Assembly: GCA_963829055.1 (NCBI GenBank)
Contig: CAWHHI010000006.1
Coordinates: 288,001-352,000 of the forward strand
DNA length: 64,000 nucleotides
Source of the DNA: an uncultured Gemmatimonadaceae bacterium
GTDB taxonomy: Bacteria; Gemmatimonadota; Gemmatimonadetes; Gemmatimonadales; Gemmatimonadaceae
Direction: 5' to 3'
The notes beneath the pieces were generated by a model. It was not told where the DNA came from and did no database searches. It worked only from the letters and a program-made list of their open reading frames with translations. Positions within the stretch are counted from its first letter, which is position 1; each line of letters begins with the position of its first letter. Below, one piece after another: positions 1,032-64,000 of this stretch. Made by a program: the position numbers and the translations under genes.

Positions 1032-1935
1032 GTCGCTGCTGGCCGAGCGGCCATTGCAATCGCCGGCCCCATCCGCACCCGCGTGGCTCGACCGGTCGCT
1101 GTATCCGTTCACCAGCCGCTATTTCCATTCGGCTGACGGCCGGATGCACTTCGTCGACGAGGGCTCCGGGCCGCCGATCGTGATGGTTCATGGCACGCCC
1201 ACCTGGTCGTTTCTTTACCGGCACCTCATCGCGCGTCTCGCTCGGCGACATCGCGTGATTGCCGTGGACCACCTCGGCTTTGGGCTCTCGGACAAGCCGC
1301 CGAAGGCTCCGTACGCGCCGAGCGACCACGCGGCTCGGCTGGTGGCGCTGCTCGACGTGCTGGACGTTTCGGGCGCGACGTTCGTCGTGCATGACTTCGG
1401 AGGGCCGATCGGGCTCGGCGCCGCGCTCCAGCGCCTCGAACGGGTGGAACGTCTCGTGCTCTTCAACACCTGGATGTGGTCGTTGAGCGACGATCCCACG
1501 ATCGTCCGTGGCGCTCGGCTGCTGGGAGGTCGGCTGGGTCAGTTGCTGTATCGACGTTTCGGTTTCGCGGTGAACGTGATGATGCCCATGGCCGTGGGCG
1601 ACAGGCGCGTCCTCACGCCGGCGATCCGTCGACATTATGCGGCGCCGCTGGCCACGCCTAACGACCGGTCGGCGACGTGGGCGTGCGCGCGAGCGTTGCT
1701 CGGATCGAGCGACTGGTTCGACGGGCTATGGGAACAGCGGGAGCGCTGCGGGGCAAGCCAATGCTGCTGCTGTGGGGATGAAGGATCCAACGTTCGGCGC
1801 GTCCTATCTCGAGCGGTGGCGACGGGAATTCCCGAAGCGCACGCGCACACGTTCGAGACCAGTGGGCACTTCGTGCCCGAGGAGGTTCCGGCGGAGATCG
1901 TGCCGATCATCGAACAGTTCATTCCGGTTGCCTAA
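1024..1935 (+). CDS. Alpha/beta-fold hydrolase, haloalkane dehalogenase-like (short out-of-frame stretch near 1750-1830)
   Basis: YPFTSRY, MHFVDEG, HGTPTWSFLYR, DHLGFGLSDKP, VHDFGGPIG nucleophile motif, C-terminal GHFVPEE. Confidence 0.85.
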   Translation: MPESLLAERPLQSPAPSAPAWLDRSLYPFTSRYFHSADGRMHFVDEGSGPPIVMVHGTPTWSFLYRHLIARLARRHRVIAVDHLGFGLSDKPPKAPYAPSDHAARLVALLDVLDVSGATFVVHDFGGPIGLGAALQRLERVERLVLFNTWMWSLSDDPTIVRGARLLGGRLGQLLYRRFGFAVNVMMPMAVGDRRVLTPAIRRHYAAPLATPNDRSATWACARALLGSSDWFDGLWEQRERCGASQCCCCGDEGSNVRRVLSRAVATGIPEAHAHTFETSGHFVPEEVPAEIVPIIEQFIPVA

Positions 1936-1964
1936 CGCTGACCACTCACTCCATCCCACGTCCG

Positions 1965-2321
1965 ATGCACCAGGCCATCAATCTCGCGCAGAAGCTCTCC
2001 ACGTTTTCCGAGCACTTCCGGCCGCGGACGATCGGCCAGTTCAACGGCCACGACCTCATGGTCGCCAAGCTCGAGGGGCCGTTTCCGTGGCACAAGCATG
2101 ACGACACGGACGACTTCTTCCTCGTGGTGCATGGGCGTTTGACGATCCAGCTTCGTGATCGGGACGTGAAGCTCGGGCCGGGCGAGCTGTTCGTGGTGCC
2201 GCGCGGAGTGGAACACCGGCCGCTGGCGGACGAGGGCGAGGTGCACATTCTGCTCATCGAGACGCAGGGCACGCCTAACACGGGTGACCCAGCTACCGCG
2301 GCGCCGCGGGTCGAGATCTAG
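1965..2321 (+). CDS. Cupin domain protein
   Basis: FPWHKHDDTDDFFLV...GELFVVPRGVEHRP cupin motifs. Confidence 0.9.
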   Translation: MHQAINLAQKLSTFSEHFRPRTIGQFNGHDLMVAKLEGPFPWHKHDDTDDFFLVVHGRLTIQLRDRDVKLGPGELFVVPRGVEHRPLADEGEVHILLIETQGTPNTGDPATAAPRVEI

Positions 2322-2407
2322 GCGACAGGTGCGGTCGGTCGTTGCAGCGATGACGCTGGCGTTGTCGCGATGGGACACGTCCGCAGGGCTGTCGCTACCG
2401 TGGCGGA

Positions 2408-2737
2408 ATGAGCAACGATTCGAGCGACCCGATTCCAGCCTTGAAGCGTCAGCTGGCCGACGCCATTCTGGCCATTGCCGACCGCCAGCCCATCACCGTC
2501 GCGGCGCGCCGTCTGGGGATCGGTCCCGCGCGCATGTGCGATCTCCGTCGCGGCAGGATTGCGCGGTTCTCGGTAGAGCGGCTCATCCGGATTCTGGCGA
2601 CCGTCGATCGCGGGGTCAGCGTGTCGGTCGTGGTGACGGGCTCTCCGCAGGTGTGTTGGTTCCCGAAGTTGCGCGCGCAGGCAGACGCGCGGAGGCGGGA
2701 GTTTCTGATCGCGAGGAGATTGCGGCGAGGCCTGTGA
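2408..2737 (+). CDS. XRE-family (HTH_37/HigA-like) helix-turn-helix protein
   Basis: AARRLGIGPARMCDLRRGRIARFSVERLIRIL matches the HTH_37 pattern. Confidence 0.7.
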   Translation: MSNDSSDPIPALKRQLADAILAIADRQPITVAARRLGIGPARMCDLRRGRIARFSVERLIRILATVDRGVSVSVVVTGSPQVCWFPKLRAQADARRREFLIARRLRRGL

Positions 2738-2768
2738 CCCTGGCCTCCGTGACCCTCGTCGCGGACCG

Positions 2769-2815
2769 TATAGCCAGATTTGGCAAACGAACCCGCATTG
2801 CCAAATCTGGCTATA
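2769..2815. terminator. Perfect 18-bp inverted repeat between convergent genes (likely bidirectional terminator/REP-like hairpin)
   Basis: TATAGCCAGATTTGGCAA (2769-2786) / TTGCCAAATCTGGCTATA (2798-2815), 11-nt loop. Confidence 0.6.
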
Positions 2816-2886
2816 GCATCGATCTGAGAGACGGGCGTGCGACGGCGACGCGATTCCGTGCTACGGATGGCCGCGGGGATACCGGC

Positions 2887-15573: not shown

Positions 15574-15729
15574 GTCATTCCGAGCGAGCGACAGCCGGGT
15601 GCCCACGCAGTGGGCGCATGAGGAATCGAGACTATACAAGGTAGAGGGCCCTCTATCGGGACGATCGCGATTCCTCGACTGCGGCCCTTCGGGCCTCCGC
15701 TCGGAATGACATAGTCCGCTCGGAATGAC
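15574..15729. repeat. REP-like palindromic element, family A
   Basis: GTCATTCCGAGCG...GAGGAATCG...CGATTCCTC...CGCTCGGAATGAC with a duplicated right end; near-identical to 62553-62709. Confidence 0.85.
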
Positions 15730-15795: not shown

Positions 15796-17023
15796 ATGAA
15801 CACGCCGCCCTCCGCTCCCGACACCACCGCTGATCCTCACGCCGCTGAACGCGCGCGACGATGGCGTCTCGTGCTCGGGTCGGATGCCCAGGCATCGACG
15901 GGCGTCTCGCTCACCGGGGCGGACGCGGGTATGGATCAGGCGCTGCAGGCGCTGTACGGCGGCGGTGGAGGTGACGCCAACGGCTCGCGCTCCAACGATC
16001 GTCGCGGCGGTCTCGGCAGCTCGGCGCCGTCCGTCGCGCGCTGGCTCGGCGACATTCGAGAGTATTTCCCGTCATCGGTCGTGCGCGTGATGCAGCGCGA
16101 TGCGCTCGAGCGACTCGACCTCAAGCGCATGCTGCTCGAGCCCGAGATGCTCGAGGCCGTCGAGCCCGACGTCCACCTCGTGTCGACGCTCATCGCCCTC
16201 AAGAGCGTCATCCCGAACAAGACGCGTGACACCGCGCGCCTCGTCGTGCGGCGGGTCGTCGAGCAGATCCAGCGACGGCTCGCCAACGCGACTCGTCAGG
16301 CCATCACCGGCGCGCTCAATCGCTCGGCGCGCACCACTCGTCCCAGGTACGCCGAGATAGACTGGCACCGGACCATCCGCGCGAACCTCAAGCACTACCA
16401 GCCGCAATACCGAACCATCATTCCGGAAACGCGAATCGGGTTCGGTCGCAAACGCAATTCGCTTCGCGACATCGTCCTCTGCGTCGATCAGAGCGGCTCG
16501 ATGGCCGCGTCCGTGGTCTACGCGAGCGTGTTCGCCGCGGTGCTCGCGTCGCTTCCGGCCGTGTCGACGCGGTTCGTCGTCTTCGATACGGCGGTCGTGG
16601 ACCTGACGGACGACATGGACGATCCGGTGGAGCTGCTGTTCGGTACGCAGCTGGGCGGAGGCACGGACATCAACCGCGCGCTGACGTACTGCGAGTCGGT
16701 CGTTAGGCGTCCCGTCCGAGACGGTGCTCGTGCTGATCAGCGATCTGTACGAGGGCGGTCATCGCGACGAGATGCTGAAGCGTGTCGCGTCGCTGGCGGC
16801 GTCCGGCGTGCGCATGGTGGCGCTGCTCGCGCTCAGCGATCAGGGCGCTCCGTCGTTCGACCACGGGAACGCCGCGGCCTTCGCCAGCCTTGGCGTCCCC
16901 GCGTTCGCGTGCACGCCCGATCTGTTCCCCGATCTCATGGCGGCCGCGATCAGCCGGCAGGATATGGGGCAGTGGGCCTCGAAGCAGGGCATCGCGGCTG
17001 GCGGTGGGGCCGCCACGCGGTGA
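15796..17023 (+). CDS. VWA (CoxE-like) domain protein, YehP-like (frameshift near 16715)
   Basis: RRWRLVLG N-terminus, MIDAS DQSGSM, QLGGGTDI, LISDLYEGG. Its stop overlaps the next start (GTGA). Confidence 0.85.
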
Positions 17024-18408
17024 AGTGGACGACGGAGAGCGTGCTGGCGCTCGCCCCCGACCCGGCGTCCGCGAAAGCGGGACGCGATCTCGCCACGCGC
17101 CGGAAGTGGGCGTCGTTAGGCTCCGGTCAGGGCGCGGACGACGCAGTGGTGCTGTGGGGCGCGTGTCAGGGCAGCGGCAAGGACCCGTACCTCACGCGCG
17201 TGGACACGGGCGAGCCGGCCTTCAAGTGCAGCTGCCCGAGCCGCAAGTTCCCGTGCAAGCACGCGTTAGGCCTGTTTCTGATCTTCGTCCAGGCGCCCAG
17301 CGAGCTCGCCGCCGGGAAACCGCCCGATTGGGTGACCGAGTGGGTCGAGAGCCGAGCGACGCGTGCGGCCAGGCGATCGGAGCGTGAAGCGCGAACGTCG
17401 GAGGTGACCGCAGCCGCCGATGACCCCAATGACGCCACACAGCGAGAGAAGGCAGCGAAGCAGACAGCCGCACGCGCGGCCGAGCGGGAGCGGCGCGTCG
17501 CGACCGGCGTGGCGGAGCTCGGGCTCTGGCTGCGCGACCTCGTTCGTCAGGGACTGAGCGCCGCCGCGGCGCGGCCCGCGTCGAGCTGGGAGACCATGGC
17601 CGCGCGCCTCGTGGACGCGCAGGCGCCAGGCGCGGCGAGACTCGTCAGGCAGATGGCGACGATACCGGCCAGCGGTGAAGGGTGGCCCGACCGACTGCTC
17701 GATCGAATGGCGCGGCTGCATCTCCTGCTCGAGGGCTACGGTCGCATTGACACGCTTCCGCCGGACCTCGCCGCCGACGTGCGCGCGGGGCTCGGATGGA
17801 CGACGACGCAGGAAGCGCTGCTCGAGCTCGACGGTGTGCGTGACCAGTGGGGCGTCGTCGGTCGCAGAGTGACGGAGGAAGACCGACTTCGCGTGCAGCG
17901 CACGTGGTTGTGGGGACGAGAGACCGGTCGCGCCGCGCTGCTCCTCCACTTCGCGCCCGTCGGAGCCACACGGACTGAGAGCAAACCCATCGACGCGACC
18001 TTCGTCCCCGGCACGGCGTTCGAGGGTACGCTCGTGTTCTTCCCGAGTGCGGCTCCGCTGCGCGCGATCGTGAAGGAGCGCGAGCGCGCGGTCACGTGGA
18101 CGACGGACCTCGGATATGCGAGCCTCTCCGACGCGGTCGCGGCCGCGTCGAACGCGGAGGCACGCATGCCCTGGACAGAGCAGCATCCGATGCTGCTGCG
18201 CGATGCGCTACCGGCAACCGCCACGTCGCCCTGGCGAGTGAGAGACGCGGACGGTCGCTGGCTTCGGGTCTCCGAGCGCTTTCGCGACCGGTGGCGTCTG
18301 CTCGCGGTGAGCGGAGGCGCGGCGGTCTCGCTGTTCGGCGAGTGGGACGGTGAGTCGCTCTTGCCGCTCACCGTGTGGGGAGACAGTGGTGCCATCGCGC
18401 TGCTGTAA
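17020..18408 (+). CDS. SWIM zinc-finger protein, YehQ-like
   Basis: CQGSGKDPY...CSCPSRKFPCKHALGL SWIM motif; ARLVDAQAPG. The ORF-track fusion to VWA comes from the frameshift. Confidence 0.85.
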   Translation: MKWTTESVLALAPDPASAKAGRDLATRRKWASLGSGQGADDAVVLWGACQGSGKDPYLTRVDTGEPAFKCSCPSRKFPCKHALGLFLIFVQAPSELAAGKPPDWVTEWVESRATRAARRSEREARTSEVTAAADDPNDATQREKAAKQTAARAAERERRVATGVAELGLWLRDLVRQGLSAAAARPASSWETMAARLVDAQAPGAARLVRQMATIPASGEGWPDRLLDRMARLHLLLEGYGRIDTLPPDLAADVRAGLGWTTTQEALLELDGVRDQWGVVGRRVTEEDRLRVQRTWLWGRETGRAALLLHFAPVGATRTESKPIDATFVPGTAFEGTLVFFPSAAPLRAIVKERERAVTWTTDLGYASLSDAVAAASNAEARMPWTEQHPMLLRDALPATATSPWRVRDADGRWLRVSERFRDRWRLLAVSGGAAVSLFGEWDGESLLPLTVWGDSGAIALL

Positions 18409-18429: not shown

Positions 18430-20026
18430 ATGACTCTCGCGCAACCGGACCTCGCCGTCTGGCCCACGGCGGTGAACGCCGCATTGCTCGGCATCGACCG
18501 CGCGGGGCTGACGCTTCCGTCAGGCGACGGATCGTTAGGCTCGGCCTGCACGCAACTTGCCGGTGTCGAGACTGACCCCTCGGCGGCGTTGTTGCGTGTG
18601 GCCGCCGCGGCGAGTGTGTATCGGCGCTGCGGGTGGATTCCCGTGCGCACCGACGAAGCACCGCCGGCGGCCTGTCCCCCCGACGCCCGCGTGATGTGCC
18701 CGCCGGCCGCGGCGGGGCTGCTGCGGCGCATCCTGCAAGGCGAGCACGCCTCGCTCGTTGGCGAATGGCTCACGCTGGCTGCACGCCACTCCATGAGAGT
18801 GCCGGCCGATACGCTCCCCGAGCTGCTCGACCGAGCCCTGCGCGACTCGCGGCTTCGGTCACCAGTCATCACCGTCGCTGGGACACGCGCAACCTGGCTG
18901 GCCGCGCACAACCCTGATTGGTCGTTCGCGATCGCTGGCGCGAGTGCCGACGCGTTGGCGGAGCTCTGGGAGCAGTCTGCGGACGGCCGAACGCGGCTCG
19001 CGGCGCTGCAGCAGCTCCGCGTTCTCGACCCCGAGCGTGCGCGCTCGGCACTGGAGAAGTCGTGGGCAGAGGAGAGTCCAGCCGAACGCGGCGCGTTCGT
19101 CGGCGCGCTCGTCCACGGGTTGAGCCCCGCGGACGAACCATTTCTCGAGCGCGCGCTCGATGATCGACGCAAGGAGGTACGGCAGAACGCGGCCGCCCTG
19201 CTCGCCCGACTGCCGGCGTCCGCGCTGGTGGCGCGCATGGCGGCGCGGGCCAAGGCGCTGGTCTCGTTAGGCCGATCGGGGCTGCTCAAGCGGCTGCGGG
19301 TCGACGTCACGCTGCCGGCAGCTGCCGACGACGCGCTCGTTCGCGACGGCGTCGAAGCCAAGCCGCCCGTCGGGATCGGCTGAGCGCGCGTGGTGGCTCG
19401 CGCAGATCCTCGCGGCGGTGCCGCCATCCACGTGGACCCTCGGCGGGTCGGTCGACGCCAAGGCCGTGCTGGGCGCTGTGGACGGCCACGAATGGCGTGA
19501 GCCGCTCGTCGCCGGCTGGCTCATCGCGACCGAGCGACACCGTGACGCGACGTGGGCGGAGGCGCTGTGGGCACATGACCGCGTCGCTCGCATCGACCCG
19601 AAGTGGGGCGCGCCGCAGCTGGAGCGCGTGTTCACGACCATCGTCCCCGCCGACCGCGTCGACGCCGAGCTCCGCAAATCGATCGGTGCGGGACGTGATG
19701 TACTTCGCGGAAATCACCCGGTGCTTTCCGCGATTCTCGGATGGCCTAACGAGTGGAGCGACCCGCTCGCGCGATCGGTCGCGTATCGTATCAAGGAGTA
19801 TGCGTCCGAGCGGGTGCCACTCACCAGCGAGTACGGCGTGCGCGCGCTGCTCGAGCGCAGCGGCCACGCTGTACCGATATCCGCGACCGGCGCGTTCATC
19901 GACGGTTGGCCCGAGCAGGATTCCGACGCATGGCGGACGTGGGCACCCGCCATCGACGCGCTCGCGTCAGTGCTCCGGTTTCGCAACGATCTTCACCTCG
20001 CGTTCAACGAGGCACCAGCAACATGA
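18430..20026 (+). CDS. DUF5691-like helical repeat protein (frameshift near 19380)
   Basis: GxRxxWLAxHNPDW, LSPADEPFLERALDDRRKEVRQNAAALLARLP; position in a yeh-type operon. Confidence 0.75.
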
Positions 20027-21339: not shown

Positions 21340-23587
21340 GTGAGCAAGGCGATGGGTGCGGTGCACCTCTTCGGCATCCGCCACCATGGGCCGGGATCGG
21401 CGCGGAGTCTCGAGCACGCGCTCGCCCGCCTCGCGCCCGATATCGTGCTCATCGAGGGGCCGCCGGAAGCGGACGCGCTCATCCCGCTCGCCGCGGATGC
21501 CGCGATGCGCGCGCCCGTGGCGCTGCTCGTCTATCGCCCGGACGCGCCCAGGCGGGCCGTGTACTACCCGTTCGCCGAGTTCTCGCCCGAGTGGCGGGCA
21601 ATGCGATACGCGATCGGACGAGGAATACCAGCTCGCTTCATCGACCTCCCACAGGCGTATCAGCTGATCGATGAGGCGCTGCCTGACGCGGCGCCGAGCC
21701 GACGCGCCCGTCGCGCCGCGGGTGGTCGCGGACGACCCGTTAGGGTGGCTCGCAGCGGCAGCCGGCTATGACGATGGCGAGCGATTCTGGGAGCACCTCG
21801 TCGAGCATCGCCGGAAAGACGACGAGGCCATCTTCGACGCCGTGGCGTCGGTGATGACCGAGCTTCGCGCCGAGTCGGACGCCCGAAGCCGATGCGTCGC
21901 CAGTGAGGACCGAGCGCGAGAGCGCACATGCGGCGCGGGCCATTCGCAGGCGGCGCGCTGCGCGAAGGCTTTCAGCGCATCGCGGTGGTCTGCGGCGCCT
22001 GGCACGTTCCGGCGTTAGGTACCATGCCACCCGCCGCGCACGACGCGGCCATTCTCAAGGGGCTGCCGAAAGCGAAGGTCGAAGCCACGTGGGTGCCGTG
22101 GACGAACGGTCGCCTGTGCGTCGCCAGCGGCTACGGTGCCGGTATCGAGTCGCCCGGGTGGTATCATCACCTGTGGTCCGCGCCTGATCGCGTGACCGAA
22201 CGCTGGCTCGCGCGCGTGGCGGCGCTGCTGCGCGACGAGGATCTCGATGCGTCGTCCGCTCAGATCATCGACACGGCGCGGCTCGCGGATTCGCTGGCCG
22301 CGTTGCGCGGTCGCTCGCTGGCTGGTCTGTCCGAGCTGATGGAGGCGACGCGCGCCGTTCTCTGTAGCGGCGTCGACGCGCCGCTCGCGCTGATCGGCCG
22401 CAAGCTCGTGGTCGGCGAGACACTGGGTCAGGTCCCGGAAACGGCGCCAATGGTTCCGCTGCACCAGGATCTCATCCGTGAGCAGCGTCGCCTTCGCCTT
22501 CCACCGGAAGCCGTCGAGCGAACGCTCGATCTCGACTTGCGGAAGGACACGGACCTCGCGCGCAGTCAGCTGCTGCATCGCCTAACGCTGCTCGGAGTAC
22601 CGTGGGGACGCGGACAGCGAGCGGCAGGGCAGCGCGGGACGTTCCACGAGCTCTGGCTCGTGCAGTGGCAGCCGGAGCTGTCCGTGTCGCTGATCGAGGC
22701 GGCGGTGTGGGGCAACACCGTCGCCTCGGCGGCGACTGCGCGAGCGTCGGACCTGGCCGACAAGGCCGCCGAGCTGCCTGCGCTCACTGCGTTGCTCGAG
22801 CAGGTCGTGCTCGCCAACGTCGGTGATGTCGTGGGGCGGATCATGGCCCGCCTCCAGGAGGAATCGGCGCGAGCGCCGGACATCGCGCACCTCATGGACG
22901 GTCTGCCGGCGCTCGCCAACGTGCTGCGCTACAGTGACGTCAGGCGAACGGATCTCGGCGTCATCGGCGACGTCGTCGATGGATTCGTGGTGCGGATCTG
23001 TGTCGGCCTGGGTGTCGCCTGCAGTTCACTCGACGATGATGCCGCGGCGGCGATGCGCAGGCGGATCGAGGCGGTACACGGCGCGGTCGCGCTGCTCGCG
23101 CGCGAGGAACACACGGCTGCGTGGCACGCCGCAACAGCAAGGCTCGCGGACTCGGAGCAAGTGCACGGCACCGTCGCTGGACGATGCGCGCGTCTGCTCT
23201 TCGATGCCGGAGCGCTGGGCCCGGCCGACGCCGCCCAGCGTCTTTCGCGAACGCTGTCCGCGGCCGAAGATCCCGCGCGTGCAGCGGCGTGGGTGGAAGG
23301 ATTTCTCGCAGGGAGCGGGCAGTTGCTGTTGCACGACGATGCGCTCTGGCAACTCATCGACGGGTGGCTCGTCGCGTCTTCGCGAGGAGACGTTCGTCGC
23401 TCTGCTCCCGCTGCTGCGCCGGGCCTTCTCGGCCTTTGCTGCGCCTGAGCGACGACAGCTTGGCGACCGTGCTCGCCGGCCGAGCACCACGGATGGCCTA
23501 ACGTCTGGGGATAGCGGCGAGTTCGATCACGTCAGAGCGGAGGCGGGACTCCGTACGGTTCTGACGTTGCTGGGTGTGGACGGGTAG
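21340..23587 (+). CDS. DUF5682 family protein, YehM-like (frameshifts near 21700, 21930, 23380)
   Basis: FGIRHHGPGSA, LIEGPPEA, PFAEFSPEW, VCGAWHVPAL, SGYGAG, WVEGFL, LPLLRRAFS. Confidence 0.85.
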
Positions 23588-26044: not shown

Positions 26045-26068
26045 GATGTCTCTGGGCCTCGGGTGGCG

Positions 26069-26879: not shown

Positions 26880-27070
26880 GCGCTGAGCGGCGGGAAGAGG
26901 AAACAGCTGAGGCGAATATGCAGCGAGCCCCTCACAGCGCAAGCACCGGCGTTCGGCGAGGCCTAACGTCGCCAGGCTACGAACCCGAGCGCGCCATTGA
27001 GCCACCGTCGGCTTGCGGAGCTCGGATACAGAAATAGATTGCGTTTTGTACAGATACGAGGCGGGGCCAC

Positions 27071-40159: not shown

Positions 40160-41119
40160 ATGCCCCGAGCCTCTCGCCGCTCGCTCGTCGCGCGAGCCAT
40201 CCTCGCACTTGCCTCAACGCTTCCTGTCGCTGCAGACGGCCAAGCACCCAGTCCACCGCCGGTCATCGGTCACTGGGACCTGACAGTCACGGCTCCGGAC
40301 GGCGTCTACCCGTCATGGTTGGAGGTGACGGCGTCGGGGAACGGCGTGCTCGTAGGTCGGTTCGTGGGGCACTACGGCAGCGCACGCCCGATCGGACGTG
40401 TCGAGTTCGCGAATGGCGTTATGCGGTTCGCCGTTCCGCCGCAGTGGGAGCAAGGCACCGCCGACCTGCGCTTCGAGGCGAAGCTCGACGGCAGCCGACT
40501 CACCGGCGCGATCGTCAACCCGAACGGCGACAGGCACACGCTCGTCGCGTCGCGCGCGCCCAGCCTGCGACGCACGACCGCGCCCGCGTGGGGCACGCCG
40601 GTCGAGCTGTTCAACGGGAAGGACGTCGCTGGGTGGACGACACAGGGGAGCGGCGCGAGTCGCTGGCGCGTGGTGAACGGTGTCCTCACGAACACTGCCA
40701 GCGGCGCCAATCTCATGACGACGCGCCGCTTCGAGGACTTCAAGCTGCACCTGGAGTTTCGCTACCCGAAGGGCGGCAACAGTGGCGTGTACCTGCGCGG
40801 GCGTCACGAACTGCAGATCGAAGACAGTCCGGAGCGGGACTGGCCGGGCTTGCTGGATGTCGGCGCGATCTACGGCCTGGTGGCACCTAACGAGAACGTG
40901 GCGACCGGGCCCGGCACCTGGCAGACGTACGACATCACGCTCATCGGCCGCCGCGTGACGGTGGTGTTCAACGGGCACACGGTCATCGCCGACCAGGTCA
41001 TCCCCGGGATCACCGGCGGGGCGCTCGACAGCAACGAGGGCGAGCCTGGACCGCTCGTGCTGCAGGGAGACCATACGCCGGTGGAGTTCAGAAGCATCAG
41101 GCTGACGCCGGCGAAGTAG
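40160..41119 (+). CDS. DUF1080 (3-keto-disaccharide hydrolase-like) protein
   Basis: LFNGKDVAGW, FEDFKLHLEF, GNSGVYLRG, LQGDH, FRSI. Confidence 0.9.
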   Translation: MPRASRRSLVARAILALASTLPVAADGQAPSPPPVIGHWDLTVTAPDGVYPSWLEVTASGNGVLVGRFVGHYGSARPIGRVEFANGVMRFAVPPQWEQGTADLRFEAKLDGSRLTGAIVNPNGDRHTLVASRAPSLRRTTAPAWGTPVELFNGKDVAGWTTQGSGASRWRVVNGVLTNTASGANLMTTRRFEDFKLHLEFRYPKGGNSGVYLRGRHELQIEDSPERDWPGLLDVGAIYGLVAPNENVATGPGTWQTYDITLIGRRVTVVFNGHTVIADQVIPGITGGALDSNEGEPGPLVLQGDHTPVEFRSIRLTPAK

Positions 41120-45516: not shown

Positions 45517-46869
45517 GTGCAGGATCTCACCACAGGGCCGGTCACGCGTCATCTCCTCAAGACCGCGAGCTTCATGCTCGTGACGATGGTCTTTCAGACG
45601 CTGTACTTCCTGATCGATCTCTATTGGGTGGGGCGTCTGGGCACGCAGGCCGTCGCGGCTGTCGGCGTCGCCGGCAACCTGAGCTTCATGGTGCTCGCGC
45701 TCACGCAGATGCTGGGCGTCGGCACCACGACCGTCGTGTCACACGCGGCCGGCCGGAAGGATCACCCGCAGGCGCTGTTGATGTTCAATCAGTCGCAGGT
45801 GCTGGCGATGGTGACGGGCGTGCTCTTTCTCGTCGTGGGGATGGCCGTCCGCGTGCGATACGCTTCGGCACTGAGCGCGGATGCGGGAACAGCGGCCATG
45901 GCCGCCGACTATCTGCTCTGGTTCATTCCCGCGATGGCCCTTCAGTTCGCGTTGGTCGCGATGGGGTCCGCGCTGCGCGGCGTCGGCAACTTCAAGCCCG
46001 GCATGATCGTGTCGACGGCGACGATCATCATCAACATGATCCTCGCGCCGTTCCTCATCTTCGGGTGGGGGACGGGGCATGCCTTCGGCGTCGCCGGCGC
46101 CGCGATGTCGTCGCTCATCGCGATCGTCGTCGGCATCGTGTGGTTCACGAAGTATTTCGTTGAACCCGGTGCCTACCTGCGGTTCATGACCGCTGACTGG
46201 CCACCGCGATTCGACCTGTGGCGGAAGATGCTCGGGATCGGTCTCCCCGCCGGCTTCGAGTTCGCGCTCATGGCGCTGTACATGGTCATCGTGTACTCGA
46301 TCGCGCGTCCGTTCGGCGCGGCGGCGCAAGCGGGCTTCGGCATCGGCATGCGCATCGTGCAGTCCGGGTTTCTTCCTATCGTCGCCCTCGGTTTCTCGGT
46401 TGCGCCCGTCGCGGGACAGAACTTCGGTGCGGGAATGGCGCAGCGCGTGAAGGACACGTTCCGGGATGCAGCCGTCATGGCTATGGGAGCGTCGATCCTG
46501 TTCGCGATCATCTGCAACATCGCGCCGGCGGCGCTCGTGGGAATCTTCTCGACCGATCCAGAGGTCATCGCCCGCGGCGAGGATTACCTCCGGATCATCT
46601 CGTGGAACTTCGTCGCCTCCGGACTGATCTTCGTGTCGTCGAGCATGTTCCAGGCGATGGGCAACACGATTCCTTCGCTGATCAGCTCGGGCGTGCGACT
46701 CGCGATCGTCGCGATTCCGGCCGTGCTGCTGTCGAGAATGCCGGGATTCGAAATGCGCTGGATCTGGTATCTGTCGGTTGGCGCCGTGTTCATTCAGCTG
46801 GCGCTGAGCTTGTTGCTGCTCCGTCGCGAATTCGATCGGCGGCTGCAATTCGTTGCTGTTCCCGCCTAA
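45517..46869 (+). CDS. MATE family efflux transporter
   Basis: DLTTGPV, DLYWVGRLG, RGVGN, GVAGAA, GQNFGA; about 12 TM. Confidence 0.92.
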   Translation: MQDLTTGPVTRHLLKTASFMLVTMVFQTLYFLIDLYWVGRLGTQAVAAVGVAGNLSFMVLALTQMLGVGTTTVVSHAAGRKDHPQALLMFNQSQVLAMVTGVLFLVVGMAVRVRYASALSADAGTAAMAADYLLWFIPAMALQFALVAMGSALRGVGNFKPGMIVSTATIIINMILAPFLIFGWGTGHAFGVAGAAMSSLIAIVVGIVWFTKYFVEPGAYLRFMTADWPPRFDLWRKMLGIGLPAGFEFALMALYMVIVYSIARPFGAAAQAGFGIGMRIVQSGFLPIVALGFSVAPVAGQNFGAGMAQRVKDTFRDAAVMAMGASILFAIICNIAPAALVGIFSTDPEVIARGEDYLRIISWNFVASGLIFVSSSMFQAMGNTIPSLISSGVRLAIVAIPAVLLSRMPGFEMRWIWYLSVGAVFIQLALSLLLLRREFDRRLQFVAVPA

Positions 46870-46889
46870 CGTCGCTTCGGTTGCCATCC

Positions 46890-47321: not shown

Positions 47322-47472
47322 GTCATGCCGAGCGGGGTTGTCATTCCGAGCGAGCGCAGCGAGTCGAGGAATCGAGACTGGGTGGATAGAGGGCTCTCTA
47401 CCCGGACGATCGCGATTCCTCGACTCCGGGCCTTCGGCCCTCCGCTCGGAATGACAACTCGCTCGGCATGAC
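47322..47472. repeat. REP-like palindromic element, family A (both ends duplicated)
   Basis: GTCATGCCGAGCG-GTCATTCCGAGCG...GAGGAATCG...CGATTCCTCG...CGCTCGGAATGAC-CGCTCGGCATGAC. Confidence 0.85.
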
Positions 47473-47537: not shown

Positions 47538-50019
47538 ATGACCATCTCGGCCATCGCCCGACCCGCCTGGAGATCGCTGCGCCGCAGCCCCGCCTTCACC
47601 ATCACCGCGTCGCTGACACTCGTCATCGGCATCGGCGCGGCGGTCGCGATCTTCGCCCTCGTGAACGGGGTGCTGCTGCGCCCGCTTCCGTATGGAAACC
47701 CCGATCGACTGGTCGCGATGTACCACGACCTGAGCATCGCGGCGCTCCCCAAGGGCAACCAGACCGCGGGCACGTACTTCACGTACAAGCGGCTGGCGAG
47801 AACCGCCGAGAGCATGGGACTGTACCAGAGCGGCGCCGTCAACGTGTCCGACCCGCGCGGCGGCGCCGAGCCGCAGCGCATCGGCTCGACGTGGATGACG
47901 GCCAGCGTCCTCTCGGTGCTCCAGGTATCGCCGCTCGTGGGACGCAACTTCACCGATGCGGAAGACCTGCCGAAAGGGCCTAACGTCATCCTCATCAGCG
48001 AAGGACTCTGGCGATCGCGCTTCGGCGCCGACCCGCGCATCCTCGGCCGCACCCTCGAGGTGAATGGGAAGAGTCACGAGATCATTGGCGTGATGCCCCA
48101 GCGCTTCCGATTCCCCATGACGGACACGCAACTCTGGCTGCCGCTGCAGCTCGACCCGAATACGCCGTTCCCTGGCGGCTTCAACTATGACGGCATCGCG
48201 CGGCTCAAGCCCGGCATCTCGCCCGTGGACGCGCGGCGTGACTTCGCTTCGGTGCTGCCGCGGATGGTCGAGATGTTTCCGAATATCGCGCCCGGCGTCT
48301 CGACGAAGATGCTGCTCGATCAGGCGAAGCCCGTCCCGTTACTCGTTCCGCTCAAGGACGATGTGACTGGGGGCATCGCGAAGACGCTGTGGATCGTCGC
48401 TGCTGCTGCGGTGCTCGTGCTGCTCGTCGCCTGCGCGAACGTGACGAACCTCATCCTCGTCCGCGCCGATGGTCGCCAGCGAGAGCTCGCGGTTCGCGAA
48501 GCACTCGGCGCCGGACGCGGTCGGGTGCTCGCGTACTTCCTGGCCGAATCGCTCGTGGTCACCGCTGTTTCCGGCGTGGTCGGATTGCTGCTCGCGGCGG
48601 TCGCCATACGTGTCCTCGTGAATGCGGGACCGACCGCCATCCCGAGGCTGAGCGAGGTGCACGTCGATCCCGCGACCGTCGGCTTTGCGCTCGCGGTCGT
48701 CGTCGTGGTCGCATTCGTGTGCAGCATCGCGCCGGGCCTGCGGATCGGCAGCGTCGATCTCTCGAACGCGCTGCGAGAGGGCGGACGCGGCGGCACGGCA
48801 GGGCGTGCGCGTCAGCGGCTGCGCAGCACGCTCGTCGCCGCGCAGATTGCGCTCGCACTCGTCGCGCTCGCGAGCTCGGGATTACTGCTGCGCACGTTCC
48901 AGCGACTCAACGCCGTGCGGCCCGGCTTCGACGCGGAGCGGCTCGCGACATTCTGGCTGTCGCTACCCGAGACGCGCTATCCGAGCGATACGTCCGTCGT
49001 CCGCTTCTACACGCAGGTGCTGGAGCGCGTGCGCGCACTGCCGGGCGTCGTGGAGGCCAGCGTCACGTCGCGCCTGCCACTCGTGAATAACAACGGCATG
49101 AGCCAGGATCCCCTGTACCCGGAGGGTGATGCCACATACACCTCGAAGATTCCGCCGCTGCAATTGTACACGACGACGGACGGCAGCTACTTCCGCACGA
49201 TGGGCATTCCGCTGATCGCGGGGAAAACGTTCGACCGGCTCGAGACCCAGCGGTCTGACGAGGCGATCATCAGCCGCGCGGCGGCCATCCAGTTCTGGCA
49301 TGACTCGACCGGCCAGCAGGCGCTCGGCAAGCGGTTCCGGGAGCTGCCTAACACGCCGTGGTTCACCGTGATCGGAGTCGTCGGTGACACACGTGACACG
49401 CTCGCTCGCGTCGCCGCCGTCGCAGGTCGTCTACCGGCCGCAGACGGTGTCGGCGGACCAGTTGATGGGCCAGACGCGCTGGACGATGGCGCTCGCCGTC
49501 CGTACCGCTGGTGAGCCGACGTCGATCATGTCGGCCGTGCAGCGCAGCGTCCGCGATCTCGATCCAGGTTTGCCACTCTATGACGTGCGCTCGATGAGCG
49601 CTGTCGCAGCGGCATCGATGGCGCAGCTGTCGTTCACGATCATCGTGCTCGGCGCCGCGGCGCTGGTGACGCTCGTTCTCGGTGCGGTCGGTCTGTATGG
49701 CGTCATGGCGTACGTGGTTGCGCTGCGCACGCGTGAGCTGGCGGTCCGTATCGCGTTAGGTGCGACGCCGCAGGCCATCGTGCGCATGCTCACGACGCAA
49801 GGCGTGATCGTCACGGGGTTCGGCGTGGTGGGTGGGCTCGTGCTGTTCGCGCTCATCGCGCGGACACTGAGGTCGCTGCTGTTCGGCGTCGCGTCGACCG
49901 ATCCGCTCACGCTCGCGAGCGCGTCGCTGCTGCTCATTGCCATAGCCGCGCTCGCGAGCTGGTTGCCGGCGCGTCGCACGTCACGCGTGGATCCGGCGGA
50001 CGTCTTGCGCGCCGAGTAG
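47538..50019 (+). CDS. ADOP-family duplicated ABC permease (frameshift near 49405)
   Basis: RSLRRSPAF, LLRPLPY, LLVACANV, RQRELAVREALGA, RTRELAVRIALGA, PARRTSRVDP. Confidence 0.9.
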
Positions 50020-61949: not shown

Positions 61950-61967
61950 GGGCAAGGAAAGCCTGAA

Positions 61968-62001
61968 GTCAATGCATTGACAGTGTGTCAATACATTGAC
62001 A
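61968..62001. promoter_or_regulatory. Tandem palindromic operators upstream of the blaI-like gene
   Basis: GTCAATGCATTGAC (61968-61981) and TGTCAATACATTGACA (61986-62001), overlapping TTGACA hexamers. Confidence 0.65.
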
Positions 62002-62041
62002 TCGAGGCCCGTCGGCCGTCAAGGCTTATTTTCGTTCCGGT

Positions 62042-62530
62042 ATGCATCCGCGCGCAGACCACCTCATCGCGACTCTCGATCTCCGCCCCCACCCGGAGGG
62101 CGGATTCTACCGCGAGGTGTATCGCTCGGCCGAGCGAGTGGTCCCCGCGGACGCGCGCGGTAACCGCGCGGCGCTCACGACGATCTACTTCCTCCTCCCG
62201 GCGGGCTCGCACAGCCGCTGGCACGTCGTCGCGTCCGACGAGGTATGGCACCTCTACGAGGGTGACGGGCTCGAGCTGCTCGAGCTCGACGCGTTAGGTG
62301 CCAATCTCACGCGGCACCGGCTGGCAGCGGTGGGCGACGGCGCCGGCGCCCCTGTTCACACAGTACCGGCCGGGAACTGGCAGGCAGCGCGGCCGTTAGG
62401 CGCCTACGCGCTCGTAGGATGCACGGTAGCGCCAGGGTTCGAGTTCGCGGACTTCCAGCTGCTCGCCGAGAGGCCGGATCTCGCCGCTACTGTTCGCACC
62501 GCGTGGCCTGACGTCGCGTCGCTCTTGTAG
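62042..62530 (+). CDS. Cupin_5 (DUF985) protein
   Basis: LRPHPEGGFYRE, TTIYFLL, SDEVWH, VGCTVAPGFEF. Confidence 0.92.
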   Translation: MHPRADHLIATLDLRPHPEGGFYREVYRSAERVVPADARGNRAALTTIYFLLPAGSHSRWHVVASDEVWHLYEGDGLELLELDALGANLTRHRLAAVGDGAGAPVHTVPAGNWQAARPLGAYALVGCTVAPGFEFADFQLLAERPDLAATVRTAWPDVASLL

Positions 62531-62552
62531 CGGAACGACGGGCAGGCGGGTT

Positions 62553-62709
62553 GTCATTCCGAGCGAGCGCAGCCGGGTGCCCACGCAGTGGGCGCATGAG
62601 GAATCGCGATCATACGGGTAGAGGGGCCCGCTCTACCGGGACGAGCAACGATTCCTCGACTCCGGCCTGCGGCCTCCGCTCGGAATGACACGGCTCCGCT
62701 CGGAATGAC
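62553..62709. repeat. REP-like palindromic element, family A
   Basis: Near-identical to 15574-15729, including the GGGTGCCCACGCAGTGGGCGC insert. Confidence 0.85.
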
Positions 62710-62716
62710 ACGCTCC

Positions 62717-64000
62717 TCAGTCGTTGAGGGCCACCATTGGACTCACGCGCGCCGCGCGGCGGGCAGGCACGAGCGTCGCCACCAGCGCGACCGCCGCCAA
62801 CACGACCACGACCAGCGCGATCACCCCCGGATTCAGCGCCTGCACGCCGTAGAGCAGTCCGCCGATCACGCGCGTGAGCCCCAGCATTCCTACGACACCC
62901 AGCGCCAGCCCGATCGCTGTGATGCGCATGCCGTCCCGCACGACGAGACCGAGGATGTCCGCGGCCGTGCTGCCTAACGCCATACGGACGCCGATCTCGC
63001 GGCGTCGCTGCGAGACCTGATACGCGAGCACGCCGTAGATGCCGACCGCGGCCAGGAACAGCGCCACCGCCCCGAACGCGAGCCCGATCAACATCGGCAC
63101 GCGACGCGGCACCAACGCCTGATCGACGCGCTGCTCCATCGTCTGCACGCCGAACACCGGCATCTCGCGGTCGATGGACACGATGGCTGCCCGCACCGCG
63201 CCCGCAACCGCGGCCGCATTCCGCTCGGCCCGAACGGCGAACACCAGATTCCGGTCCGTGGACTGCGAGTACGGGAAGTAGTACGCGCCTATCGGCGTAT
63301 CACTCGGCGTGGGCCCCATGAGCTGTACGTTCCTGATCACGCCGACCACGGTGAGAAAGCGAGTCTTGCCGTCGACGGCCGCCAGATCGTTAGGGTTGGA
63401 CGGCGTGTACATGCGACGGCCAATGGCATCCTGGTTCGGCCAGAAGTGCGCGGCGAGTCGCTCATCGATGATGATCACCGGTTGCGATGTCGGCGTGTCC
63501 CGCGCGTCGAAGAATCGTCCGCGCGAGAGTCGGACGCCCATTGCCTCGAAGAACCCGGTCGTCACGACGACGGAGCTCGGCGACACCAGAGACTCGCCCG
63601 GCTTCATCTCATGGCCCTCGGCCAGGATGATGCTGTTGCTGTAGTCGCCACCGAGAGGAATGGCCGACGTTGCTCCCGCCGCGGTGACGCCCGGCAACTC
63701 GTGGAGCCGTGCCGCTATCCGCGCGGTAACGTCCACCAGCGCGGCATCATCCGCATAACGATACGCCGGCAGTGTGACGGACGCGGTGACTACGCCCGCC
63801 GGCTGGAACCCCGGGTCGACGCGCAGCACGGCGCGGAAACTCGCCAACAGCAGGCCGGCGCCAACGAGCAGTACGAACGCCAGTGATACCTGCGCAACAG
63901 CCAGGCCTCGACGCAGGCGCGCTGCCGCGCCGCTCGACGTCCCGCCGCGGCCGCCCTCGCGCAGGTACGTTGTGAGGCTCGCGCGACGCAGCTGCGCGAC
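62717..64000 (-). CDS. ADOP-family duplicated ABC permease, C-terminal half (5' end outside window)
   Basis: VDPGF, GIYGVLAYQVSQRRREIGVRMALG, PARRAARVSP. Confidence 0.88.
   Translation of the reverse strand, partial: VAQLRRASLTTYLREGGRGGTSSGAAARLRRGLAVAQVSLAFVLLVGAGLLLASFRAVLRVDPGFQPAGVVTASVTLPAYRYADDAALVDVTARIAARLHELPGVTAAGATSAIPLGGDYSNSIILAEGHEMKPGESLVSPSSVVVTTGFFEAMGVRLSRGRFFDARDTPTSQPVIIIDERLAAHFWPNQDAIGRRMYTPSNPNDLAAVDGKTRFLTVVGVIRNVQLMGPTPSDTPIGAYYFPYSQSTDRNLVFAVRAERNAAAVAGAVRAAIVSIDREMPVFGVQTMEQRVDQALVPRRVPMLIGLAFGAVALFLAAVGIYGVLAYQVSQRRREIGVRMALGSTAADILGLVVRDGMRITAIGLALGVVGMLGLTRVIGGLLYGVQALNPGVIALVVVVLAAVALVATLVPARRAARVSPMVALND

What the first reader, a model, noticed from the sequence alone, without database searches (positions are those of the whole stretch)
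1657..63394. Highly iterated non-palindromic motif CCTAACG/CGTTAGG about every 0.84 kb: candidate undescribed DNA-level signal
Seen: I counted by eye 76 CCTAAC/GTTAGG cores (e.g. 1657, 1931, 2914, 4634, 6326, 8430, 10292, 11582, 13712, 16702, 17265, 19266, 22581, 25112, 28710, 31467, 37232, 43377, 47979, 52757, 56260, 60460, 62973). About 69 extend to CCTAACG, most to GCCTAACG, and most of the rest are CCTAACA. Orientation is balanced (about 40 CCTAAC vs 36 GTTAGG on +), and the largest gap is about 2.7 kb. A zero-order estimate at ~69% GC gives about 7 copies of the 7-mer, and TA-containing words are otherwise scarce here. Established: dense short motifs in other bacteria include DNA uptake sequences (Neisseria, Pasteurellaceae), cyanobacterial HIP1, Chi and KOPS. 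This motif matches none of them, is not strand-polarised like Chi/KOPS, and I saw no pairing into terminator hairpins. Inference: a lineage-specific signal such as an uptake sequence, a nucleoid/replication protein site, or a methylation-coupled HIP1-like motif.
Basis: partly seen in the sequence, partly recalled or inferred. Interest (0 to 1): 0.85.

Follow-up and report, generated by a model that had tools for sequence, protein, structure and literature searches.

The report
Hyper-abundant genome word GCCTAACG
This soil bacterium has written one eight-letter DNA word about once per kilobase through ordinary genes against its own codon habits, much like the DNA-uptake tags of Neisseria and Haemophilus; the word is spelled like the ends of integron gene cassettes, and what reads it is still unknown.

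Summary
The window holds 76 CCTAAC/GTTAGG cores (40/36) and 69 CCTAACG, against 2.7 expected. The whole 7.78-Mb genome holds 6391 CCTAACG. GCCTAACG (5004 copies) is its most over-represented 8-mer.

The word is a DNA-level signal:
- It sits in all four stop-free frames on both strands.
- It holds 1514 of 2724 TTA codons and survives a synonymous-codon shuffle (3996 observed, about 343 expected).
- It is unpolarised and spaced more evenly than chance.
- At orthologous sites it is kept in 53 of 85 comparisons, against 18.5% for control 7-mers.

It is patchy within the family and also fills Chthoniobacterales genomes of another phylum and temperate phages. It spells the integron attC core, but integrase presence does not track richness.

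The best reading is an uptake-sequence-like tag kept by biased transfer (confidence 0.4). No reader was found. ComEC, ComEA, pilins, ComP, RecC, Vsr, an MmeI-like methylase and a phage TerS all fail to discriminate. This scan reported the same word earlier on other genomes.

The parts
1657..63394 (.). Span holding 76 CCTAAC/GTTAGG cores. Of these, 69 are CCTAACG (37 +, 32 -) and 54 are full GCCTAACG; the mean gap is 823 nt. By my crude gene calls the 69 split into 24 antisense TTA-GGx (Leu-Gly), 16 sense CCT-AAC (Pro-Asn), 9 antisense GTT-AGG (Val-Arg), 8 sense CTA-ACG (Leu-Thr), 9 intergenic and 3 supplying a stop codon.
1931..1937 (+). Word whose TAA is the stop codon of the + strand alpha/beta-hydrolase gene 997-1935 (GCC TAA CG).
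26067..26073 (-). Word whose TAA is the stop codon of the - strand lgt (prolipoprotein diacylglyceryl transferase) gene 26069-26935. It is conserved in G005.
46865..46871 (+). Word whose TAA is the stop codon of the + strand MatE transporter gene 45517-46869.
17114..17120 (-). Word in a VWA_CoxE gene, read as the rare Leu codon TTA plus GGC. The 7-mer is conserved in all 5 congeners at about 77% overall nucleotide identity.
18533..18539 (-). Word (TTA-GGC) in a DUF5691 gene; the 7-mer is conserved in all 5 congeners.
19265..19271 (-). Word (TTA-GGC); the 7-mer is conserved in all 5 congeners, while the eighth base varies in G002, G003 and G004.
37231..37237 (-). Word (TTA-GGC) in a protein kinase gene; the full 8-mer is conserved in all 5 congeners.
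16701..16707 (-). Word specific to this genome. The congeners carry CGTCAGG (4 of 5) or CGTCCGG (1 of 5), one or two letters away.
22013..22019 (-). Word specific to this genome (TTA-GGT). The congeners carry common Leu codons (CTC/CTG/CTA) 3-4 letters away, so this is a multi-step gain.
49754..49760 (-). Word specific to this genome. The congeners carry CGCTTGG, CGCTCGG or CGCTGGG, 2-3 letters away.
40417..40424 (.). One of 7 copies in the window of the secondary word GCATAACG/CGTTATGC (the others start at 6806, 9352, 10403, 10945, 58710 and 63753). Genome-wide it has 583 copies against about 52 expected and is the top 8-mer once the main word is masked.

Best explanation
GCCTAACG is a genome-wide tag of the uptake-sequence kind (USS of Pasteurellaceae, DUS of Neisseriaceae). 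An unidentified protein in a DNA import or other horizontal-transfer and recombination route prefers DNA that carries the word. Fragments with the word are therefore brought in and recombined more often, and this biased transfer (molecular drive, possibly helped by selection) writes the word wherever the genome tolerates it. Tolerated places are the four stop-free reading frames, stop codons and the first tens of bases after genes. Accumulation stops at about one word per kilobase, because a second word close by adds little. Shown here: the abundance, the DNA-level nature, the lack of polarity, the even spacing, the conservation and continuing gain of sites, and the spread to resident prophages and to attC ends.
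For: Abundance: 6391 CCTAACG (3154 +, 3237 -) in 7.78 Mb, or 0.82 per kb. GCCTAACG has 5004 copies against 100-260 expected under order 1-3 Markov models and is the top 8-mer. Against a model trained on the masked genome, 31-62 are expected.

DNA-level nature: the word occupies all 4 stop-free frames (1148, 747, 1511 and 571 copies). It holds 1514 of 2724 TTA and 750 of 3930 CTA codons, and it survives a codon shuffle (3996 against about 343). Only 15 + 13 words lie in a stop frame with coding signal on both sides.

Low-cost niches: 317 of 930 TAA stops and 248 of 1928 TAG stops lie inside the word. Density is about 3-fold higher in the 10-60 nt after stop codons, in both orientations.

No polarity: the orientation z-score per 50 kb has SD 1.07. 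Correlation with GC skew is r = -0.13 and with gene strand r = -0.05.

Benefit that saturates per segment: there are 408 gaps under 200 nt against 978 expected, a ratio of 0.42. All 34 control 7-mers of equal abundance give 1.02-1.77.

Maintenance and turnover: at about 77% nucleotide identity, 53 of 85 word-by-genome comparisons keep the 7-mer, against 16733 of 90366 control 7-mers. Four of 24 compared sites are gains specific to this genome.

All-or-none core with graded edges: core one-mismatch variants are not enriched, whereas ACCTAACG is 41x, GCCTAACA 33x and GCATAACG 11x enriched.

Patchy distribution with dialects: all 7 genomes of the genus have 2500-5100 copies, most other genera fall below the reversed-word control, and 32 of 151 family genomes have 800 or more. 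G003 and G004 relax the eighth base. GCATAACG is also enriched in G022 but not in G052, G163, G164 or G118.

Import machinery: ComEC is present in 5 of 5 genomes and ComEA-type HHH_3 in 33 of 34.

Mobile DNA: resident temperate phages carry the word at 0.4-1.0 per kb, often as the stop codon of consecutive genes.

Density like USS/DUS: about 1 per kb is my recollection of those systems, not a call.
Against: No experiment or call shows biased uptake or any transfer.

No reader was found. ComP_DUS (PF16732) has no match over its cut-off in 5 genomes. ComEC and ComEA occur in word-poor genomes too. Three pilin-like proteins of G000 either have homologues in rich and poor genomes alike or are genus-specific.

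The word is not paired into terminator-like inverted repeats as many neisserial DUS are.

No known uptake sequence is shared between phyla. Here the same 8-mer saturates Gemmatimonadaceae and Chthoniobacterales.

The identity with the attC core is not explained by uptake alone.

Core one-mismatch variants show no halo, whereas for USS I recall a moderate one.

My gene calls are crude: they cover 72-77% of the genome, and several genes look split.
Confidence: 0.4

Rival explanations
1. Protective self tag kept by selection. A nuclease, repair or defence system that degrades or ignores DNA according to the presence of the word (a Chi-like role without polarity) selects for frequent words in the chromosome and in anything that lives in the cell.
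For: The even spacing suggests a benefit per segment. Sites are conserved. Words occur at host-like density in temperate phages with terminase, portal and capsid genes: G169 has 35 in 45.6 kb against 4 for the control, and G171 has 43 in 41 kb.
Against: There is no strand polarity at all, unlike every Chi I recall. RecC (PF04257) has no match in 5 of 5 genomes searched; AddAB and AdnAB were not searched. Selection on each of about 6000 sites would be very weak. All three word-rich phages checked carry an integrase or are proviruses, so they could acquire words as part of the chromosome. No candidate system was identified.
Confidence: 0.2
2. Integron-linked signal. The word is read by the integron integrase, or by another factor that binds the attC R box. 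The dispersed words would then be half-sites or secondary (attG-like) sites, decoys, or landing pads for cassettes.
For: The word equals the attC core. Cassette arrays in G015 and G013 have attC ends GCCTAACA ... CGTTAGGC. G000 has attC-like imperfect palindromes ending GCCTAACG ... CGTTAGG at C20:163144, 173526, 183883, 189214, 191803, 192697 and 205102, near an IntI-like gene at C20:208041-208958. The core definitions RYYYAAC/GTTRRRY come from passages of PMC3053210. Integrases insert cassettes at double-stranded genomic attG sites (passages of bioRxiv 10.1101/2022.09.11.507474). IntI is very common in the family (88 of 151 over the cut-off) and present in 4 of 6 Chthoniobacterales genomes.
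Against: Integrase presence does not follow richness. It is found in 12 of the 22 richest genomes against 88 of 151 overall. Homologues of G000's IntI-like protein occur in 8 of 14 rich but 14 of 14 poor panel genomes. The dispersed words are single, not paired: CCTAAC...GTTAGG pairs 40-150 nt apart number 81, against 67 for the opposite order. The attG consensus is only GWT. Insertion at words inside genes would destroy those genes. No known integrase activity writes its site into DNA.
Confidence: 0.13
3. Methylation- or repair-coupled motif, as proposed for cyanobacterial HIP1. A methyltransferase marks the word, and a biased repair step or a function that depends on the mark (for example strand discrimination) favours it.
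For: CCTAAC has the form I recall for MmeI/PglX-type sites: 6-7 bp, non-palindromic, with A next to last. G000 has an MmeI_Mtase/Eco57I-like region followed by an SNF2 helicase at C8:73551-78314. A function that needs a mark within reach of every position would also favour even spacing.
Against: The MmeI/Eco57I-like gene of about 1100 aa occurs in 31 of 34 panel genomes, rich and poor, and appears split in G000. No N6_Mtase (PF02384) match exists in G000. My motif screen found no C5-methylase candidate. Vsr is absent from G000 and found in 2 of 14 rich, 6 of 14 poor and 3 of 6 Chthoniobacterales genomes. A per-site mutational bias does not predict the deficit of close pairs. Known repair biases give, as I recall, under 2-fold enrichment, not 20-160-fold.
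Confidence: 0.12
4. Packaging (pac) signal of a phage or gene transfer agent. A terminase that starts packaging at the word would transfer word-bearing host DNA preferentially, which is a transduction-driven version of the same drive.
For: In phage locus L199, four words (10001 +, 10015 +, 10176 -, 10183 -) cluster directly upstream of the small-terminase gene at 9459-9998.
Against: Homologues of that TerS were found in 0 of 14 rich Gemmatimonadaceae and 0 of 6 Chthoniobacterales genomes, and only in 3 of 14 poor ones. No such cluster lies beside terS in L238. Kilobase-scale spacing is not needed for headful packaging.
Confidence: 0.05
5. Artefact, or a by-product of protein or codon composition or of a dispersed repeat family.
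For: The assembly seems to contain split genes and chimeric contig ends.
Against: Enrichment survives the codon shuffle. Flanks beyond positions -2 to +8 are at background. The word is present in many independent assemblies of two phyla.
Confidence: 0.01

Closest known systems
Uptake signal sequences (USS) of Pasteurellaceae and DNA uptake sequences (DUS) of Neisseriaceae
   Same: A short non-palindromic word at roughly one per kilobase, in both orientations. It is written into genes in several frames against codon preference, is more evenly spaced than chance, is conserved at orthologous sites, shows lineage 'dialects' at its edges, and is also carried by resident prophages. The properties of USS and DUS themselves are recalled, not taken from a call.
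   Different: No biased uptake has been shown. No ComP-like receptor was found. The word is only 8 bp. It is not paired into terminators. It is patchy within one family and shared with another phylum. It is spelled like the integron attC core.
Integron attC recombination sites (inverse core RYYYAAC, core GTTRRRY)
   Same: GCCTAAC/GTTAGGC is a perfect instance of both cores (passages of PMC3053210). Real attC-like sites in G000, G015 and G013 end in the word.
   Different: The roughly 6400 dispersed copies are single 8-mers inside ordinary genes, with no partner or palindrome. Their abundance does not follow integrase presence.
HIP1 (GCGATCGC) of cyanobacteria
   Same: An 8-mer at about one per kb across the genome, including coding sequence, whose reader is still debated (recalled).
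   Different: HIP1 is palindromic and linked to methyltransferases. This word is asymmetric, and no methylase or Vsr association was found.
Chi and KOPS (polar octamers)
   Same: An over-represented octamer in the core genome.
   Different: Chi and KOPS are polarised with replication and, as I recall, far less enriched. This word shows no polarity and RecC was not found.

Membership tests
DNA uptake sequences (USS/DUS) | Short word, hundreds to thousands of copies, about 1 per kb, both orientations equally | tested here: met
   6391 CCTAACG (3154/3237), or 0.82 per kb; no polarity
DNA uptake sequences (USS/DUS) | Present inside genes in several frames, overriding codon preference | tested here: met
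   Four frames are used; 1514 of 2724 TTA codons lie in the word; codon shuffle gives 3996 against about 343
DNA uptake sequences (USS/DUS) | Spacing more even than random | tested here: met
   The observed/expected ratio for gaps under 200 nt is 0.42, against 1.02-1.77 for 34 control 7-mers
DNA uptake sequences (USS/DUS) | Competent cells take up DNA with the word preferentially | not testable with these tools
   Needs uptake or transformation assays
DNA uptake sequences (USS/DUS) | Dedicated receptor (ComP-type minor pilin in Neisseriaceae) | tested here: not met
   PF16732 has no match over its cut-off in G000, G022, G061, G118 or G163; three pilin-like proteins of G000 are not specific to rich genomes
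DNA uptake sequences (USS/DUS) | DNA import machinery present | tested here: met
   ComEC in 5 of 5 and HHH_3/ComEA in 33 of 34 genomes, but also in word-poor ones
DNA uptake sequences (USS/DUS) | Frequent inverted pairs forming terminators (Neisseria) | tested here: not met
   Close FR/RF pairs are rarer than direct ones, and all are below expectation
Integron attC site | RYYYAAC and GTTRRRY cores | tested here: met
   GCCTAAC/GTTAGGC fit both
Integron attC site | The two cores paired 50-150 nt apart around an imperfect palindrome, in same-strand arrays | tested here: not met
   81 F..R against 67 R..F pairs genome-wide; only a few true attC-like sites exist, on C20
Integron attC site | Dependence on an integron integrase | tested here: not met
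   IntI in 12 of the 22 richest genomes against 88 of 151 overall; 8 of 14 rich against 14 of 14 poor
Chi / KOPS | Orientation bias with replication direction | tested here: not met
   In bins with GC skew above 0.01 the counts are 526/570, and below -0.01 they are 839/814; r = -0.13
   PF04257 has no match in 5 of 5 genomes; AddAB and the FtsK gamma domain were not compared between rich and poor genomes
HIP1-like / methylation-coupled motif | Palindromic word | tested here: not met
   GCCTAACG is not its own reverse complement
HIP1-like / methylation-coupled motif | Cognate methyltransferase or Vsr-type repair co-occurring with the motif | tested here: not met
   Vsr in 2 of 14 rich and 6 of 14 poor genomes; the MmeI-like gene is in 31 of 34; no PF02384 match in G000
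HIP1-like / methylation-coupled motif | Base modification at the motif | not testable with these tools
   Needs long-read kinetics or signal data
REP / MITE dispersed repeat | Conserved flanks beyond the core | tested here: not met
   Base frequencies are at background outside positions -2 to +8

The most novel reading that the evidence does not exclude
The word is a communal exchange tag tuned to integron cassettes. A horizontally spread DNA receptor in the import route of soil Gemmatimonadaceae and Chthoniobacterales recognises the 8-mer that ends attC sites. These bacteria of two phyla would then preferentially import each other's DNA and, above all, gene cassettes, whose attC sites carry two words each. 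Imported single strands can feed integrons directly, as the abstract of PMC12614218 reports for Vibrio cholerae. The same bias has written the tag through their own genomes and prophages.
Probability: 0.1. Interest if true: 0.95.

Novelty: new variant of a known kind. Interest (0 to 1): 0.78.

Why it matters
Sequence-specific DNA uptake tags are known, as far as I recall, only from Pasteurellaceae and Neisseriaceae. A third system would be new in several ways. It would lie in abundant, hard-to-grow soil phyla, be shared across phyla, and be spelled like the integron cassette core. It would tie natural transformation, integrons and genome composition together and would point to preferred gene-flow channels in soil.

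There are practical uses whatever the mechanism:
- The word is a sharp barcode. In this assembly it flags three word-free contig ends that carry duplicate housekeeping genes.
- It marks phages of these hosts.
- It distorts codon and stop-codon statistics: about a third of TAA stops lie in the word.

I found no paper containing the 8-mer as a word, and none combining 'DNA uptake sequence' with Gemmatimonad*. That library lacks most subscription journals.

Tried and rejected
1. Strand polarity in other genera. The hit lists showed long runs of '+' hits in G060, G117, G157, G084 and G052. DNA I then fetched showed balanced counts, for example 31/31 in 100 kb of G052. The runs were an artefact of how hits are listed.

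2. Word-free 'acquired islands' (C6:5440-55038, C6:591808-623330, C11:1-44055). They carry housekeeping genes: the trp and aro genes, FtsK, GlnA, FolD and GreA. Of 11 island proteins compared, 7 have a second copy at 47-58% amino-acid identity elsewhere in the genome, and GlnA and PGM have only weaker matches at 28-43%. These regions are more likely chimeric or foreign contig ends than islands, so they say nothing about amelioration.

3. Reader candidates by presence or absence. None discriminated:
- ComEC
- ComEA/HHH_3
- ComP_DUS
- RecC
- N6_Mtase, Eco57I, MmeI_Mtase
- Vsr
- integron integrase
- phage TerS
- three pilin-like proteins
PglZ/BREX, AddAB, secretin/PilQ, DprA and FtsK-gamma were not searched. 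The pilin-like genes at C3:517191 and C12:402321/402833 were not used as queries.

4. Virulent-phage test. The word-rich viral contigs checked all had an integrase or were proviruses, so they cannot separate drive from selection.

5. Frameshifts near words as a hint of modified bases. The G000-specific indels in one 7-kb alignment lay in poorly aligned stretches and were uninformative.

6. The earlier-findings look-up with guessed phylum names returned nothing.

7. Not used: sequencing-run look-up, read laying, structure prediction, complex prediction and the large protein searches.

Full report
**Observation.** The window has 76 CCTAAC/GTTAGG cores: 40 as CCTAAC and 36 as GTTAGG on the + strand, from 1657 to 63394. 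The largest gap is 2740 and the mean gap is 823. Of the 76, 69 extend to CCTAACG, 54 to GCCTAACG and 6 to GCCTAACA. Dinucleotide-preserving shuffles give 2.74 +/- 1.59 CCTAACG, and none of 100 reaches 69. Window GC is 67.3%.

**Whole genome.** The window is G000:C6:288001-352000 of a 7.78-Mb, 20-contig assembly, 85.9% complete with 3.95% contamination.
- It holds 6391 CCTAACG (3154 +, 3237 -), or 0.82 per kb, on every contig.
- GCCTAACG, at 5004 copies, is the most over-represented 8-mer under order 1-3 Markov models, which expect 100-260. A model trained on the masked genome expects 31-62.
- Base frequencies return to background outside positions -2 to +8, so this is a bare word and not the core of a longer repeat.
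- The core is all-or-none. One-mismatch variants at the six inner positions are not enriched, with ratios of about 0.6-1.6.
- The edges are graded: ACCTAACG has 827 copies (41x), CCCTAACG 428 (27x) and GCCTAACA 435 (33x).
- Two inner variants stand out. GCATAACG (583 against about 52) is the top 8-mer once the main word is masked, and it is dispersed without conserved flanks. GCCTGACG is 2.9x enriched, which may be a codon effect.

**DNA level, not protein level.** These results use crude gene calls of my own: 6170 high-confidence genes, later 7449 covering 77% of the genome.
- The word occupies all four frames that do not create a stop: sense CCT-AAC 1148, sense CTA-ACG 747, antisense TTA-GGx 1511 and antisense GTT-AGG 571.
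- It accounts for 1514 of 2724 TTA and 750 of 3930 CTA codons, the rarest Leu codons here.
- A within-gene shuffle of synonymous codons gives about 343 words against 3996 observed. That null is conservative, because it keeps the inflated rare codons.
- Words in a stop frame with coding signal on both sides are nearly absent, at 15 + 13.
- Stop codons are a favoured niche. 317 of 930 TAA stops lie in CCTAACG and 248 of 1928 TAG stops lie in CGTTAGG.
- The 10-60 nt after stop codons carry about three times the coding density, in both orientations. Along genes the word is spread evenly.
- In the window the 69 words split into 24 TTA-GGx, 16 Pro-Asn, 9 Val-Arg, 8 Leu-Thr, 9 intergenic and 3 stop codons. 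The genes are ordinary chromosomal ones: kinases, MacB/FtsX permeases, lgt, radical SAM, citrate synthase and MatE.

**Arrangement.**
- There is no polarity. Per 50-kb bin the orientation z-score has SD 1.07. Correlation is r = -0.13 with GC skew and -0.05 with gene strand, while GC skew and gene strand correlate at 0.51.
- Neighbouring words avoid each other. There are 408 gaps under 200 nt against 978 expected, a ratio of 0.42, and an excess at 400-1600 nt. All 34 control 7-mers of the same abundance give 1.02-1.77.
- The deficit holds for direct and inverted pairs alike, so there are no terminator-like or attC-like pairs.
- A per-site mutational bias would not produce this. It suggests a benefit counted per stretch of DNA.

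**Evolution.** Orthologous regions of five congeners are only about 77% identical in nucleotides.
- Even so, 53 of 85 word-by-genome comparisons keep the 7-mer, against 16733 of 90366 (18.5%) for all 7-mers in the same alignments.
- Four of 24 compared sites are specific to this genome. Their orthologues carry either one-letter neighbours such as CGTCAGG or common Leu codons 2-4 letters away.
- The word is therefore old, maintained and still being gained by multi-step change.
- G003 and G004 keep the 7-mer but relax the eighth base.

**Distribution.**
- All 7 genomes of the genus have 2500-5100 GCCTAACG.
- Among 151 genomes of the family, 32 have 800 or more and 16 have 2000 or more, in many genera. 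Most others have fewer than the reversed-word control. These tallies include four unpublished genomes, G021, G046, G047 and G143, on which no claim rests alone.
- One genus holds both states: G061 has 3896 and G158 has 4141, but G118 has 66.
- The eight genomes of two sister families searched are poor.
- The same word with the same flank preferences is seen in fetched DNA of five other genera.
It brought up many records titled Chthoniobacterales (Verrucomicrobiota) beside Gemmatimonadaceae. Five of those genomes hold 2110-5186 copies (up to 1.4 per kb), balanced between strands, against controls of about 240-320.
- The named records most similar to G000 are titled Gemmatimonadaceae.
- The secondary word GCATAACG is also enriched in G022 (708 against 207). 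It is not enriched in G052, G118 or two Chthoniobacterales genomes, so it is a dialect.

**Phages.**
- A few IMG/VR contigs are word-rich: G169 has 35 words in 45.6 kb, G171 has 43 in 41 kb and G170 has 18 in 49 kb.
- L238 and L199 encode terminase, portal, protease/capsid and tail proteins.
- In these contigs many words are the TAA stop of consecutive genes. In L219, 8 of 16 words were confirmed this way.
- All three carry an integrase or are classed as provirus. They may therefore have acquired the word as residents of the chromosome.

**The integron link.**
- In the word-poor relatives G015 and G013, same-strand runs of the word turned out to be cassette arrays. Their roughly 110-nt repeats are imperfect palindromes with ends GCCTAACA ... 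CGTTAGGC.
- These are the inverse core RYYYAAC and the core GTTRRRY of attC sites (passages of PMC3053210).
- G000 itself has such sites on C20, ending GCCTAACG ... CGTTAGG, near an IntI-like gene that scores 265.7 bits against a cut-off of 265.
- So the genome-wide word is the 8-mer at the ends of this lineage's attC sites.
- The dispersed copies are nevertheless not attC sites (81 against 67 pairs).
- Integrase does not explain richness. TIGR02249 over its cut-off is found in 88 of 151 genomes and in 12 of the 22 richest. Homologues of G000's protein occur in 8 of 14 rich, 14 of 14 poor and 4 of 6 Chthoniobacterales genomes.
- Published genomic insertion sites (attG) share only GWT (passages of bioRxiv 10.1101/2022.09.11.507474).
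- Natural transformation is reported to deliver single strands from which a chromosomal integron recruits cassettes (abstract of PMC12614218). This gives a possible logic for an import tag spelled like the cassette core, but no evidence for it here.

I compared rich and poor genomes, up to 14 + 14 of the family plus 6 Chthoniobacterales. Nothing discriminated:
- ComEC in 5 of 5
- ComEA-type HHH_3 in 33 of 34
- ComP_DUS with no match over its cut-off
- RecC in 0 of 5
- Vsr in 2/14, 6/14 and 3/6, and absent from G000
- N6_Mtase absent from G000
- an Eco57I/MmeI-like gene of about 1100 aa in 31 of 34, which looks split in G000
- phage TerS in 0/14, 3/14 and 0/6
- three pilin-like proteins, either family-wide or genus-specific

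**Verdict.**
- The finding is real and striking.
- The pattern matches uptake sequences in every feature that sequence alone can show, and it fails the Chi/KOPS, HIP1, attC and repeat-family tests.
- I commit to an uptake-sequence-like tag kept by biased transfer, at 0.4. The rivals are a selected protective tag (0.2), an integron-linked reading (0.13), a methylation-coupled motif (0.12) and a packaging signal (0.05).
- The function is inferred, not shown.
- The same word was already reported by this scan on other genomes.

**Limits.**
- Gene calls are home-made.
- Relatives are kin, so counts across them are not independent.
- MAG incompleteness blurs absences.
- The literature library lacks most subscription journals.

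Noticed in passing
G000 contig C6:5440-55038, C6:591808-623330 and C11:1-44055 (outside the window): Three word-free stretches of 31-50 kb lie at contig ends. They carry housekeeping genes (trp and aro genes, FtsK, GlnA, FolD, GreA). Seven of 11 tested have a second copy at 47-58% amino-acid identity elsewhere in the assembly. They look like chimeric joins or contaminant DNA rather than acquired islands, and the word works as a barcode for them.
   Followed up: partly
window 15575-15728, 47341-47454, 62554-62708; 767 copies genome-wide: A second dispersed element has the conserved end CGCTCGGAATGACA, often preceded by ATTCCTCGACTC-like sequence, and occurs as inverted pairs in intergenic DNA (REP/MITE-like). 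Its 8-10-mers top the high-order Markov lists.
   Followed up: partly
window 18430-20023, 21340-23445, 42172-44642, 3612-6363: Several genes appear split into adjacent ORFs that match successive parts of one Pfam family (DUF5691, DUF5682, Amidohydro_3, ABC_tran). My gene calls cover only 77% of the genome. This suggests frameshift errors in the assembly or many pseudogenes.
   Followed up: no
G000 C20:163144-205185 and C20:208041-208958: Seven attC-like imperfect palindromes ending GCCTAACG ... CGTTAGG are spread over 42 kb beside a borderline integron-integrase gene (265.7 bits against a cut-off of 265). They lie on the 3' side of that gene, which is unusual for an integron.
   Followed up: partly
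L001 (G015:C95:1-20000), L002, L003 (G013:C3), L004: Word-poor relatives of a sister family carry large same-strand cassette arrays: 24 attC-like repeats in 20 kb, of two sub-types. Integron integrases over the cut-off occur in 88 of 151 genomes of the family, so this family is very rich in integrons.
   Followed up: partly
L187 (G000:C8:73551-78314): An MmeI_Mtase/Eco57I-like methylase region is followed by an SNF2/ResIII helicase, apparently one long gene broken into several frames in G000. Intact homologues of 1050-1200 aa occur in nearly all family genomes searched.
   Followed up: partly
L199:10001-10190 (IMGVR_UViG_3300015615_001045): Four words, two direct and two inverted, cluster within 190 nt directly upstream of the small-terminase gene of a provirus. 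This may be a packaging-site region.
   Followed up: partly
Fetched DNA disproved the polarity.
   Followed up: yes
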